A DNA stretch of 50,260 nt, taken from IMG/VR virus record IMGVR_UViG_2728369607_000007, positions 1 through 50,260 of that record. One strand, given 5' to 3'. The first letter of the stretch is position 1; each line of letters starts with the position of its first letter. Of the stretch, positions 37,807-39,420 are shown piece after piece. The position numbers and the translations under genes are program-made. The DNA is from a virus (taxonomy: Duplodnaviria > Heunggongvirae > Uroviricota > Caudoviricetes). The notes below the pieces were generated by a model, which was not told the DNA's origin, ran no database searches, and saw only the letters and a program-made list of their open reading frames with translations.

Positions 37807-39212
37807 AACTGGCACCGAACGTAAAACGATTACCGAAAGATAAATACACCGATGCGATTATTTTTGCGGGTATTGATGCTCATTCATTCGCAGAGCATTA
37901 CATCATTGCACAGGCAAAAAAAGCAGGAGATCCAGTCCCTCCCGTTTATCTGGGGCGTTATCAGTTAAGCGAACTGGATAACCTCCAGATTGTTGATGAT
38001 GGGCGATACAGGGCGACGGTGATACGCGCCGGAAATATTGAAGAGCCGCAGCTGTTAACCATCGCCACGAAACTGGCGATCGCCGGAGTCCAGGAGGCGC
38101 GGCTACTTTCTGAAAATTTCGAATTGCTGGAGGAATGGAGCGACCAGCTTCCACGGCTTAGGGAGGCATGGGAACGCGGGGAAAGCCTGGTCATGAAAAA
38201 AATCCCCCAGCGAAAAACCACGCTACCGATGAGCGTTGGATCTACCGGATACGACACACAGCTTGATTACGTGGTAAAGGGGATTATTCCGGCATCGTCG
38301 CTTTGCAGCATATACGGGGCGAGCGGTTCCTATAAATCATTCCTTGCCGGATCGTGGGCGTGTCACGTTTCCACGGGCCGCCAGTGGGGAGGCCGCAGGG
38401 TGGCGCATGGCGCTGTTCTCTATGTGGTTGGTGAAGGCGGTATCGGCGTTCCGCGTCGTGTAAAAGCCTGGGAGGTTGTGCACGGTGAGCAGGTGAAAAA
38501 TCTGTATCTGGTAAACCGTCCCATCTTTCCGGCGGTCCCGCTTGATGTTGATGAAATGGTTATCGCTGCCCGTCAGGTGGAGCGGGAAACGGGTAAACCT
38601 GTACGCATGATTATTCTGGATACGCTGGCGCGTTGCTTTGGTGGGAATGATGAAAATGATTCCCGTGATATGGGGGCGTTTATCCGTGGGTGTGACGAGC
38701 TTAAACGGCGCACAGGGGCCACGGTGCTGGTGGTTCACCATTCCGGCAAGGATGAGACGAAAGGCGCGCGCGGTTCCAGTGCATTTCGTGCTTCGCTGGA
38801 TGCTGAATACCGGATACGCAGGGAGGACGCAGGAAGCGAAGCGCTGGTTATCTCATGCACCAAAATGAAGGACGCGGAGGAACTCAAAGAGGCTGCCTAT
38901 GATTTGCGGGTGGTGGAGCTTTTTACCGACGCTGACGGGGAGTTAATCACGTCGCTGGTGGTGGTGGATAAGCCGCGCCCTCCCGTTGAACTGGAGCGCA
39001 TCGAGGAGGCAGGCAACAAGACGGAAAACCATACCGCACTATGGGGGTGCATCCGTTCACGCACACAGAACGGCGACAAGTGCACGATCCCGCTGTTACG
39101 TGATGACATGAAACGGCTTGGGTATGACGTGAAAAATATGCGGCGATGGTTAGCCAAACTGGAAAAAGACGCCGTGATTTACATTGATGGTGATGATGTA
39201 GGACCACTGTAA
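37803..39212 (+). CDS. RecA-fold replicative ATPase (RepA/AAA_25-like, possible primase-helicase)
   Basis: Walker A GASGSYKS, Walker B-like MIILDT, DnaB/RepA-like C-terminal half; followed by iteron array. Confidence 0.7.
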   Translation: MKLAPNVKRLPKDKYTDAIIFAGIDAHSFAEHYIIAQAKKAGDPVPPVYLGRYQLSELDNLQIVDDGRYRATVIRAGNIEEPQLLTIATKLAIAGVQEARLLSENFELLEEWSDQLPRLREAWERGESLVMKKIPQRKTTLPMSVGSTGYDTQLDYVVKGIIPASSLCSIYGASGSYKSFLAGSWACHVSTGRQWGGRRVAHGAVLYVVGEGGIGVPRRVKAWEVVHGEQVKNLYLVNRPIFPAVPLDVDEMVIAARQVERETGKPVRMIILDTLARCFGGNDENDSRDMGAFIRGCDELKRRTGATVLVVHHSGKDETKGARGSSAFRASLDAEYRIRREDAGSEALVISCTKMKDAEELKEAAYDLRVVELFTDADGELITSLVVVDKPRPPVELERIEEAGNKTENHTALWGCIRSRTQNGDKCTIPLLRDDMKRLGYDVKNMRRWLAKLEKDAVIYIDGDDVGPL

Positions 39213-39420
39213 AAAGTGAGTAGCAAAAGTGAGTAATGGTGAGGTTTTTACAAAATATTAACACGATTGCTCACTTTCTCACCTGTATACATGCTCAAAA
39301 GTGAGGAGTAAAAAAATGCTTATGAAACATGCACATATAAAACACGAAAATCTCAAGCGAGACGAAGTGAGACGCGTTAAAAAGTGAGGCGTAAAAGTGA
39401 GCGCGAGTGAGGAGATAACC
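39211..39420. repeat. Iteron array (~10 copies of AAAGTGAG in both orientations) with AT-rich spacer; candidate island replication origin
   Basis: AGTGAG at 39215, 39228, 39299, 39365, 39382, 39394, 39404; CTCAC at ~39271 and ~39280; directly downstream of RepA-like gene. Confidence 0.6.

What the first reader, a model, noticed from the sequence alone, without database searches (positions are those of the whole stretch)
39211..39420. Iteron-type candidate replication origin after the RepA-like gene
About ten copies of AAAGTGAG (both orientations) are packed into ~200 bp with an AT-rich centre, immediately 3-prime of the RepA-like ATPase gene. This is the classic organisation of an iteron origin in satellites and plasmids.
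Basis: partly seen in the sequence, partly recalled or inferred. Interest (0 to 1): 0.45.

Follow-up and report, generated by a model that had tools for sequence, protein, structure and literature searches.

The report
Replication origin of a phage satellite
The repeat cluster is real and is very probably the replication origin of a capsid-forming phage satellite in the E. coli chromosome, an expected kind of element; one amino acid of the neighbouring helicase tracks one base of the repeats across about 130 related elements.

Summary
Ten GTGAG-core repeats (six exact AAAGTGAG; eight direct, two inverted) lie in 39213-39411, starting at the RepA stop codon. About 0.3 are expected per 200 bp.

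The host element is a capsid-forming PICI-type satellite between roxA and phoQ. This is the same attachment site and gene backbone as EcCICFT073, whose pri-rep-ori segment at the equivalent position replicates experimentally.

RepA has three parts: an N-terminal domain shared with other island initiators, a RecA-fold ATPase like RSF1010 RepA, and a C-terminal winged helix like Orc/Cdc6.

In 76 related loci with at least four repeat copies, plus 57 distinct virome variants, the repeat sequence follows the residue before the recognition helix:
- N445: GTGAG
- H: GTGGG
- KKF: GTGGGGG
- KSF: GTGCGGC
- KGF: GTGCGCG

Residue 445 is the only one of 118 variable columns that separates the GTGAG from the GTGGG elements.

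The layout is constant in nearly all of those loci: direct repeats, an inverted pair around a TA-rich dyad, an AT-rich spacer of about 55 bp, then more direct repeats.

This is a new member of a known kind of origin. The helicase class and the one-residue specificity switch are the new details.

The parts
32679..33929 (+). Tyrosine integrase, the left end of the satellite. The island lies between roxA and phoQ.
   Evidence: phrog_1 integrase, E 9e-72. Same flanking genes as L001 and as EcCICFT073.
34304..34492 (+). AlpA-family regulator, typical of Gram-negative PICIs.
   Evidence: Pfam Phage_AlpA, E 5e-18.
37507..37806 (+). DUF4222 gene overlapping the repA start. It is conserved upstream of all three initiator types.
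   Evidence: Pfam DUF4222, E 2e-23. Same position in L009 and L094.
37803..39212 (+). repA, a 469-aa initiator-helicase. It has an N-terminal domain (aa 1-126), a RecA-fold ATPase (about aa 150-320; Walker A GASGSYKS at 172-179) and a winged-helix C-terminal domain (aa 400-469).
39000..39209 (+). Coding region for the winged-helix DNA-binding domain. The recognition helix is aa 446-455.
39135..39137 (+). Codon AAT for Asn445, the residue that tracks repeat base 7 (A in GTGAG).
   Evidence: Of 118 variable columns, only this one separates GTGAG from GTGGG elements. In IMG/VR, 24/24 N-type loci have mostly GTGAG and 33/33 H-type loci mostly GTGGG.
39213..39243 (+). Left repeat triad: AAAGTGAG (39213), AAAGTGAG (39226), ATGGTGAG (39236). 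Spacing is 13 + 10 bp.
   Evidence: One to four left direct copies (three in most GTGAG-class loci) in all classes.
39244..39269 (.). First AT-rich spacer.
   Evidence: About 70% AT. It overlaps the least stable 30-mer of the intergenic region, 39232-39261.
39270..39305 (.). Central dyad: CTCACTTT (inverted repeat), a second inverted core at 39278-39282, the palindrome TGTATACA (39284-39291), then AAAGTGAG (39298-39305).
   Evidence: Inverted repeat I9. The 27-31 bp spacing (29 or 31 in all but one locus) and the TA-rich centre are kept in every specificity class.
39306..39354 (.). Main AT-rich spacer, the candidate unwinding element.
   Evidence: About 70% AT in this window. In the 64 loci where the dyad was located, the same spacer is 49-84% AT and the central-to-right-cluster distance is 55-66 bp in all but a few.
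39355..39411 (+). Right repeat cluster: decayed AAGCGAGA (39355), GAAGTGAG (39364), AAAGTGAG (39381), AAAGTGAG (39394), CGAGTGAG (39404). The last one overlaps the SD GAGGAG (39409-39414).
39424..39666 (+). First downstream gene (80 aa, phrog_1231). It is conserved after all three initiator/origin cassettes.
   Evidence: Annotated at the same position in L001-L009 and L094.
39987..40397 (+). Island-encoded single-strand DNA-binding protein.
   Evidence: Pfam SSB, E 1.4e-15.
41314..47655 (+). Capsid and packaging module: HK97-type capsid, S78 protease, portal, head completion protein, HNH, TerS and TerL. There are no tail genes. This module defines the island as the capsid-forming PICI type.
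   Evidence: Pfam hits. Annotation of the 98%-identical L001.

Best explanation
Window 39213-39414 is the vegetative replication origin of a capsid-forming PICI-type phage satellite integrated between roxA and phoQ.

The adjacent gene encodes RepA, an initiator that is also a helicase. It has a RecA-fold ATPase core like the RSF1010 RepA hexameric helicase, and a C-terminal winged helix of the Orc/Cdc6 type.

The winged helix reads the 8-10 bp repeat AAAGTGAG(G). The residue just before the recognition helix (Asn445) specifies the A at repeat position 7.

Proposed sequence of events, which is inferred. After the helper phage induces the island, RepA molecules occupy three sites: the left triad, the right cluster, and a central inverted pair that brackets the palindrome TGTATACA. 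This complex opens the neighbouring AT-rich spacer of about 50 bp. RepA rings then load onto the single strands without a separate loader. The island SSB and the host primase and polymerase do the rest.

What is shown: the array is real. Its layout is conserved across Enterobacterales. The repeat sequence co-varies with residue 445. The C-terminal domain has a winged-helix fold (predicted).

What is inferred: binding, melting, self-loading, and replication itself.
For: Local enrichment: 10 cores in 196 bp against 0.31 expected; P about 2e-12.

Conservation: repeat columns are conserved far more than spacers among 9 E. coli relatives. 50 of 80 repeat columns are invariant against 33 of 122 spacer columns (Fisher p 1e-6).

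Concerted change: all copies in an element, including the inverted ones, switch together between GTGAG and GTGGG.

Covariation with the protein:
- RepA residue 445 is N in every GTGAG element and H in every GTGGG element.
- It is the only one of 118 variable columns that separates the two groups.
- A tree built without the motif columns shows at least 4 N/H sister pairs, each with a matching repeat switch.
- L003 RepA is 98% identical to the window protein, and its substitutions cluster in the last ~46 residues; all of its repeats have switched to GTGGG.
- Wider classes: KKF with GTGGGGG (28/28), KSF with GTGCGGC (7/7), RKHF with GTGGGGGC (2/2).
- A prospective check: the unseen motif KGF (Yokenella, L090) has a new repeat, GTGCGCG, in the same layout.
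- An independent IMG/VR sample: 57 distinct C-terminal-domain-plus-origin combinations, 24/24 N and 33/33 H consistent.

Layout: the inverted-to-direct repeat spacing is 27-31 bp (29 or 31 in all but one locus), the centre is TA-rich, and the central-to-right-cluster distance is 55-66 bp in most, in 64 loci where the dyad was located, whatever the repeat sequence.

Context:
- EcCICFT073 occupies the same attachment site on the same backbone and has its own repeats (TCTACC, 11 copies) at the same position. Its pri-rep-ori replicates, and deleting rep or ori reduces this (PMC6092414).
- The EDL933 cf-PICI has a third initiator type with 9 copies of AACCCGCA there.
- No sigma-70 promoter-like site was found in 38900-39700, the only terminator-like site lies on the minus strand inside repA, and there is no Rfam family in the gap.
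Against: There are no replication, binding or melting data for this cassette. Everything here is comparative or predicted.

The AT-rich stretches are in the least stable 0.5% of 30-mers in the window, but they are not the least stable in the island.

The ATPase core is poorly modelled (pLDDT 30-50 in places). The link to RSF1010 RepA is modest.

Twelve of 88 loci have fewer than 4 recognisable repeats. A few N-type elements carry mixed GTGAG/GTGGG arrays (L093, L142, L163, L166), so the match is not absolute copy by copy.

Inverted copies occur only on one side of the main AT-rich spacer, unlike the arrangement described for SaPIs.

Binding by RepA could also serve transcription control of the downstream genes.
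Confidence: 0.85

Rival explanations
1. The repeats are RepA (or other regulator) operator sites only. They would control read-through transcription from repA into the SSB, PerC and capsid genes, or would auto-regulate, and the true origin would lie elsewhere.
For: The array lies in a co-directional operon. The scan found no sigma-70 promoter-like site in 38900-39700 and only one terminator-like site, on the minus strand inside repA. The last repeat overlaps the ribosome-binding site of the next gene. A TA-rich box between the inverted repeats loosely resembles a -10 element. Covariation proves recognition by RepA, not replication.
Against: The reader domain is fused to a helicase ATPase, not to a regulator.

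The rigid layout with an AT-rich spacer matches PICI origins (PMC6092414, PMC9371898).

The equivalent segment of EcCICFT073 was needed for replication.

No second repeat cluster exists elsewhere in the island that could be the origin.

A regulatory side effect could coexist with origin function.
Confidence: 0.08
2. The array is a packaging or recombination site (cos/pac, or att-like arm sites), or a partition centromere.
For: Short repeats in both orientations also occur in terminase, integrase arm-type and ParB sites.
Against: The repeats co-vary with the RepA winged helix, not with TerS or the integrase.

The array stays attached to repA when the packaging module differs: L002 and L003 have a ClpP-capsid fusion, L005 and L006 have capsid plus decoration protein, and the window has the HK97 set.

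No ParA or ParB gene is present.

TerS lies 6 kb away.
Confidence: 0.02
3. The cluster is a chance or low-complexity feature, or a relic with no present function.
For: The intergenic DNA is AT-rich. One copy is already decayed (39355). Some relatives have few copies.
Against: P is about 2e-12.

The layout is conserved from Escherichia to Xenorhabdus, Serratia, Pectobacterium and Morganella.

All copies change together, in step with the protein.
Confidence: 0.01

Closest known systems
EcCICFT073 pri-rep-ori (E. coli PICI; Fillol-Salom et al. 2018, PMC6092414)
   Same: It occupies the same chromosomal attachment site (roxA/phoQ).

It has the same backbone: int, AlpA-type regulator, DUF4222, initiator, origin, small gene, SSB, PerC.

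Its origin is at the same position, directly 3' of the initiator, with repeats around an AT-rich stretch.

Its initiator shares the first ~125 residues with the window RepA at 46% identity.

This is the case for which replication was shown experimentally.
   Different: Its initiator is an SF3-type D5_N/DUF5906/Pox_D5 primase-helicase of 584 aa, not a RecA-fold RepA.

Its repeats are TCTACC/GGTAGA (11 copies), not AAAGTGAG.

EcCICFT073 lacks the full capsid and terminase module.
SaPI origins with Rep self-loading helicases (SaPI1, SaPIbov1, SaPI5; PMC9371898)
   Same: The origin is immediately downstream of rep.

It has 6-12 short repeats with an AT-rich centre.

The initiator is a helicase whose C-terminal winged helix reads the repeats.

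Specificity differs between islands.
   Different: SaPI Reps are AAA+ helicases (SF3 or MCM-like SF6). The core here is RecA-fold, like RSF1010 RepA.

SaPI origins have opposed repeats on both sides of the AT-rich region. Here the inverted copies form one central dyad left of the main spacer.
EcCIEDL933, the prototype cf-PICI
   Same: It has the same island type, with a near-identical downstream small gene, SSB, PerC and HK97-type capsid module. The DUF4222 gene is upstream and the initiator has the shared N-terminal domain.
   Different: Its initiator is DUF927/Cch-like (related to MCM) with an HTH_56 tail. The 370-bp gap holds 9 copies of AACCCGCA.
IncQ plasmid RSF1010 replicon (RepA helicase, RepC initiator, RepB' primase, oriV repeats)
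   Same: RSF1010 RepA (1g8y) is the only solved structure related by sequence to the window protein's ATPase core.
   Different: In RSF1010 the repeats are read by a separate protein, RepC, and RepA has no DNA-reading domain.
Viral initiator-helicases at dyad origins (SV40 large T antigen, papillomavirus E1). This comparison rests on general knowledge.
   Same: Short pentameric sites are arranged as an inverted pair next to an AT-rich tract, and they are read by a DNA-binding domain carried on the helicase itself. This suggests assembly of two rings at the dyad.
   Different: Those helicases are unrelated (SF3), with a different origin-binding fold. The analogy concerns layout only and was not tested here.

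Membership tests
PICI-type replication origin | Lies immediately 3' of the replication initiator gene | tested here: met
   The RepA stop is at 39210-39212 and the first repeat is at 39213. The position is the same in 85 related loci.
PICI-type replication origin | Two sets of short repeats flanking an AT-rich region | tested here: met
   A left triad plus central dyad and a right cluster of 4-5 copies flank a spacer at 39306-39354 that is about 70% AT.
PICI-type replication origin | [quoted passage not shown] | tested here: inconclusive
   Two inverted copies (39270, 39278) face a direct copy (39298) across TGTATACA, but the right cluster is all direct. Some relatives have an extra inverted copy in the spacer (L003, L010).
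PICI-type replication origin | The initiator is a helicase with a C-terminal winged helix that reads its own repeats | tested here: met
   AAA_25 ATPase. Winged-helix C-terminal domain. Residue 445 co-varies with repeat base 7. Binding itself is inferred.
PICI-type replication origin | Initiator-dependent autonomous replication of a rep-ori fragment | not testable with these tools
   This was shown only for the non-homologous cassette of EcCICFT073 at the same position (PMC6092414).
Capsid-forming PICI (host element) | A small island with int, an AlpA-type regulator and a replication module, plus its own capsid, protease, portal, connector, HNH, TerS and TerL, but no tail genes | tested here: met
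   Pfam hits. Annotation of the 98%-identical L001. The island spans about 15-16 kb between roxA and phoQ.
IncQ (RSF1010) replicon | A separate RepC repeat-binding initiator and RepB' primase alongside the RepA helicase | tested here: not met
   Only the helicase core is related. The neighbouring genes are DUF4222, a small unknown gene and SSB. The reader domain is fused to the helicase.
Classical plasmid iteron replicons (Rep_3 / pPS10, R6K, F, P1 type) | A WH1-WH2 Rep initiator without helicase activity, 17-22 bp repeats, and DnaA boxes | tested here: not met
   The only Pfam hit is AAA_25. The repeats are 8-10 bp. There is no DnaA box within 1 mismatch, no IHF consensus and no GATC in 39151-39450.
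P4 alpha / ori-crr system | An SF3 primase-helicase with two separated repeat clusters (ori and crr) | tested here: not met
   The window RepA has no D5 domain. There is a single cluster in the island.

The most novel reading that the evidence does not exclude
RepA would define a fourth mechanistic class of satellite initiator: a RecA-fold (RSF1010-RepA/DnaB-like) helicase that finds and opens its own origin through a fused Orc/Cdc6-like winged helix.

Its specificity would be set by a near one-residue code at the cap of the recognition helix (N gives A, H gives G, K gives a G-run, S or G gives C). The C-terminal domain and the origin would move together as a recombination cassette onto different helicase and island backbones.

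That would give satellites a simple way to change replication specificity. It would also give experimenters a set of natural, orthogonal initiator/origin pairs.
Probability: 0.55. Interest if true: 0.55.

Novelty: new member of a known kind. Interest (0 to 1): 0.4.

Why it matters
The origin of this widespread E. coli satellite family is not annotated in any record examined. The ori-region query matched 1059 of 5426 complete E. coli genomes.

Placing it precisely gives a testable minimal replicon.

The comparison also yields an unusually clean natural protein-DNA recognition series. One amino acid (N445 or H) tracks one base (A or G) in about 95 independent sequence combinations, and further motif classes read other repeats.

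This predicts the outcome of a single point mutation.

It also shows that three unrelated helicase families have been plugged into the same island slot behind a shared N-terminal domain.

None of this changes the known picture of how PICIs replicate. It extends that picture to another initiator type.

Tried and rejected
- Phage collection: megablast of 37000-40500 found nothing, and the distant mode gave one marginal hit. The element is not a deposited phage.
- Rfam with a permissive threshold on 39000-39700: no match.
- Promoter and terminator scan of 38900-39700: no promoter; the one terminator-like site is on the minus strand inside repA.
- Host-factor sites: no DnaA box within 1 mismatch, no IHF consensus, no GATC, and no oriC-like 13-mers.
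- A 23-codon ORF (39316-39387) with a plausible SD: rejected, because its ATG is absent in L006-L008.
- The long minus-strand ORFs across the gap (38947-39264, 39279-39725): rejected. RefSeq annotates nothing there, the relatives differ by 1-nt indels, and conservation follows the repeats rather than codons.
- Foldseek of the full-length model against the PDB: uninformative apart from weak RadA/Rad51 hits. The N-terminal domain fold was not identified.
- PADLOC, Pfam and PHROG on the two ORFs between alpA and ash: no hits.
- Literature search for the repeat strings: only unrelated primer sequences.
- The idea that co-resident islands must differ in specificity: not supported. Several genomes carry two or three elements of the same class.
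Full report
THE OBSERVATION

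The 211-bp gap between the RepA stop (TAA, 39210-39212) and the next start codon (ATG, 39424) holds ten copies of a GTGAG core. Six are exact AAAGTGAG (39213+, 39226+, 39270-, 39298+, 39381+, 39394+). Four are variants (39239+, 39278-, 39367+, 39407+).

The whole 50-kb window has only 7 exact octamers against 1.3 expected, and no shuffle reached 7. Ten cores in 196 bp compares with 0.31 expected per 200 bp. The Poisson P is about 2e-12, and no other 200-bp stretch has more than 3.

The left and right triads belong to a 46-nt direct repeat with identical 13 + 10 bp spacing.

Two stretches of about 70% AT lie inside the array, against roughly 40-48% AT in the flanking genes.

WHERE IT SITS

The window is E. 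coli chromosome. It holds a lambdoid prophage (about 1-27 kb), then potABCD, pepT and roxA, then an island of about 15-16 kb, then phoQ.

The island encodes the following:
- an integrase (32679-33929) and AlpA (34304-34492)
- an Ash-family protein and DUF4222
- RepA (37803-39212) and the repeat array
- an 80-aa gene, SSB and PerC
- an HK97-type capsid, S78 protease, portal, head-completion protein, HNH, TerS and TerL

There are no tail genes. This is the gene set of a capsid-forming PICI (10.1101/2022.09.08.507074).

A 3.5-kb query around the array matches 1687 of 5426 complete E. coli genomes. The array itself matches 1059.

EcCICFT073, the E. coli PICI whose pri-rep-ori segment was shown to drive plasmid replication, lies in the same roxA/phoQ site. 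It has the same gene order around its initiator.

THE REPEATS CHANGE IN STEP WITH ONE RESIDUE OF RepA

I aligned the gap from nine E. coli elements that are 71-100% identical. The repeats are the conserved part: 50 of 80 repeat columns are invariant against 33 of 122 spacer columns (Fisher p 1e-6).

Five elements use GTGAG and four use GTGGG. Within each element every copy has the same form, including the inverted copies.

The RepA proteins differ at many sites. Residue 445, however, is Asn in all GTGAG elements and His in all GTGGG elements.

L003 is the clearest case. Its RepA is 98% identical to the window protein, and its substitutions cluster in the last ~46 residues. Its whole array has switched to GTGGG.

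I then fetched 80 RepA relatives from other Enterobacterales (51-72% identical). For each I extracted the repeat downstream of the stop codon. Among the 76 loci with at least four copies, the motif aligned to window residues 443-450 predicts the repeat without exception:

| Motif | Repeat | Count | Found in |
|---|---|---|---|
| K-N-[FM]-x-R-W | GTGAG(GA) | 28/28 | Escherichia, Salmonella, Xenorhabdus |
| K-H-[FL]-x-R-W (includes R-K-H-F-S-R-W, below) | GTGGG | 12/12 | Escherichia, Salmonella, Kluyvera, Kosakonia, Pantoea, Superficieibacter |
| K-K-F-x-R-W | GTGGGGG | 28/28 | Serratia, Pectobacterium, Morganella and others |
| R-K-S-F-x-R-W | GTGCGGC | 7/7 | |
| R-K-H-F-S-R-W | GTGGGGGC | 2/2 | |

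Further tests:
- As a forward test I looked up a protein with an unseen motif (G-R-K-G-F-R-R-W, from Yokenella). Its array has the same layout but a new repeat, GTGCGCG.
- Among residues 150-469, 118 columns vary in the Escherichia/Salmonella clade. Only column 445 separates the GTGAG from the GTGGG elements. The same holds over all 38 N- or H-type loci.
- A tree built with the motif columns removed shows at least four N/H sister pairs, each with the matching repeat switch.
- An independent sample of 80 IMG/VR loci gave 57 distinct combinations of C-terminal domain and array. 24 of 24 N-type were mostly GTGAG and 33 of 33 H-type mostly GTGGG. The same C-terminal types appear on helicase bodies that are 75-98% identical to the window.

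Exceptions exist:
- Twelve of 88 loci have fewer than four copies.
- Four N-type elements carry mixed arrays (L093, L142, L163, L166). In three of them (L142, L163, L166) the left half and the dyad are cognate and the right cluster is foreign, which looks like recombination inside the array. L093 is mixed throughout.

WHAT RepA IS

Pfam finds only AAA_25 (residues 151-318, E 1e-43). The Walker A motif GASGSYKS and a Walker B aspartate are invariant in the family.

AlphaFold2 models the ATPase core poorly. The two ends are confident.

The third helix, the usual recognition helix, is residues 446-455. Lys444 and Asn445 sit at its N-terminal cap.

A preference of Asn for adenine and of His, Lys or Arg for guanine is the common pattern in protein-DNA contacts. 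This point is general knowledge and was not tested here.

A profile of this domain finds only 77 clusters at 50% identity among 1.84 billion proteins. In full-length proteins (about 360-700 aa) the domain is always at the C-terminus.

A CONSERVED LAYOUT

Whatever the repeat sequence, the order is the same in nearly all of the loci analysed:
1. One to four direct copies at the stop codon (three in most GTGAG-class loci).
2. About 25-30 bp of spacer.
3. One or two inverted copies.
4. A TA-rich box.
5. A direct copy 27-31 bp after the inverted one (29 or 31 in all but one locus).
6. An AT-rich spacer, 49-84% AT. The central copy and the right cluster are 55-66 bp apart, start to start, in all but a few loci.
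7. One to five direct copies (none in L011) ending at the ribosome-binding site of the next gene.

In the window the central element is CTCACTTT-N6-TGTATACA-N6-AAAGTGAG (39270-39305). It is a 36-bp dyad whose exact centre is the palindrome TGTATACA (39284-39291).

This fixed geometry points to one nucleoprotein complex rather than a set of independent sites.

The AT-rich stretches rank in the least stable 0.5% of 30-mers in the window, though not the least stable in the island.

There is no DnaA box, IHF site or GATC. No sigma-70 promoter-like site was found in 38900-39700, and the only terminator-like site lies on the minus strand inside repA. No Rfam family matches the gap.

A CASSETTE SLOT

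Three unrelated initiators occupy the same slot, between the DUF4222 gene and the small gene, SSB and PerC:
- the RecA-fold RepA described here
- an SF3-type D5_N/DUF5906/Pox_D5 protein in EcCICFT073, with 11 copies of TCTACC/GGTAGA
- a DUF927/Cch-type protein with an HTH_56 tail in the EDL933 cf-PICI, with 9 copies of AACCCGCA

All three begin with the same ~125-residue domain, which is 46% identical between them.

Each initiator brings its own repeats. This is what is expected if the gap is the origin that the initiator serves.

MECHANISM AND COMPARISON

The best reading is a PICI-type origin. The initiator-helicase binds its repeats through a C-terminal winged helix, opens the AT-rich spacer and loads itself. 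This is what has been described for SaPI Reps (PMC9371898).

Recognition by RepA is strongly supported by covariation. Melting, self-loading and replication are inferred by analogy and from position.

It is not an IncQ-type replicon, because there is no separate RepC. It is not a Rep_3 plasmid replicon: the repeats are 8-10 bp, there are no DnaA boxes, and the initiator is a helicase. It is not P4-like: there is no D5 domain and no second cluster.

The differences from the described PICI cases are the helicase class (RecA-fold rather than AAA+ SF3 or SF6) and the single central dyad.

I could not establish whether the 2018 figure of E. coli PICI origins already included this cassette. The text and the supplements held here do not give the repeat sequences.

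VERDICT

It is a new member of a known kind of origin.

The extra value lies in the clean one-residue, one-base covariation and in the modular initiator slot. Both are directly testable.

Noticed in passing
window 37803-38180 (RepA aa 1-126); L094 12242-12634; L009 498-875: Three initiators with unrelated helicase cores (RecA-fold RepA, SF3 D5-type, DUF927/Cch-type) share a confidently folded N-terminal domain of about 125 aa at 46% identity. The domain has no Pfam match. It always follows a DUF4222 gene whose stop overlaps the initiator's start. Its function is unknown; it may be a docking domain for a host, helper or DUF4222 partner.
   Followed up: partly
L010 2524-2960 (Xenorhabdus beddingii): Two origin-like arrays lie in tandem after one repA, which here is a 680-aa form. 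The first is the cognate GTGAGGA type. The second is a nearly complete GTGGGGA-type array with its own inverted repeat and TATATA box, so a non-cognate origin sits next to the cognate one.
   Followed up: partly
L093 2598-2820; L142, L163 and L166, about 2913-3130: Hybrid arrays. In L142, L163 and L166 an N-type RepA has GTGAG copies in the left half and the dyad, but GTGGG copies mixed into the right cluster. This suggests recombination breakpoints inside the origin. L093 is mixed throughout.
   Followed up: partly
window 39404-39414: The last repeat (CGAGTGAG) overlaps the Shine-Dalgarno GAGGAG of the next gene. In several GTGGG-type elements this last copy alone stays GTGAGGA (for example L006 and L092). 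This may reflect a translational constraint.
   Followed up: no
window 34545-35297 and 35254-36045: Two ORFs (250 and 263 aa) between alpA and ash have no Pfam, PHROG or PADLOC match. They are absent from the otherwise 98%-identical island in L001. They sit where PICIs often carry accessory or defence cargo.
   Followed up: partly
window 1-27100, next to potABCD: A lambdoid prophage (terminase, portal, tail and tail-fibre ORFs) lies about 5 kb from the satellite. CFT073 also has prophage tail-fibre genes next to potB. It could be a resident helper phage.
   Followed up: no
window 25701-25950: GGACC occurs 8 times in a 200-bp stretch inside the 422-aa ORF 25054-26322. This is the only other short-word cluster of similar size in the window. 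It is probably a coding repeat in a tail-fibre-like gene.
   Followed up: no
P0119 (680 aa) and L010 484-2526: Some close RepA relatives replace the shared N-terminal domain with a zinc-ribbon plus Toprim primase (Pfam PF08273, PF13362, PF13481). The 469-aa window protein therefore lacks a primase and presumably relies on the host's.
   Followed up: no
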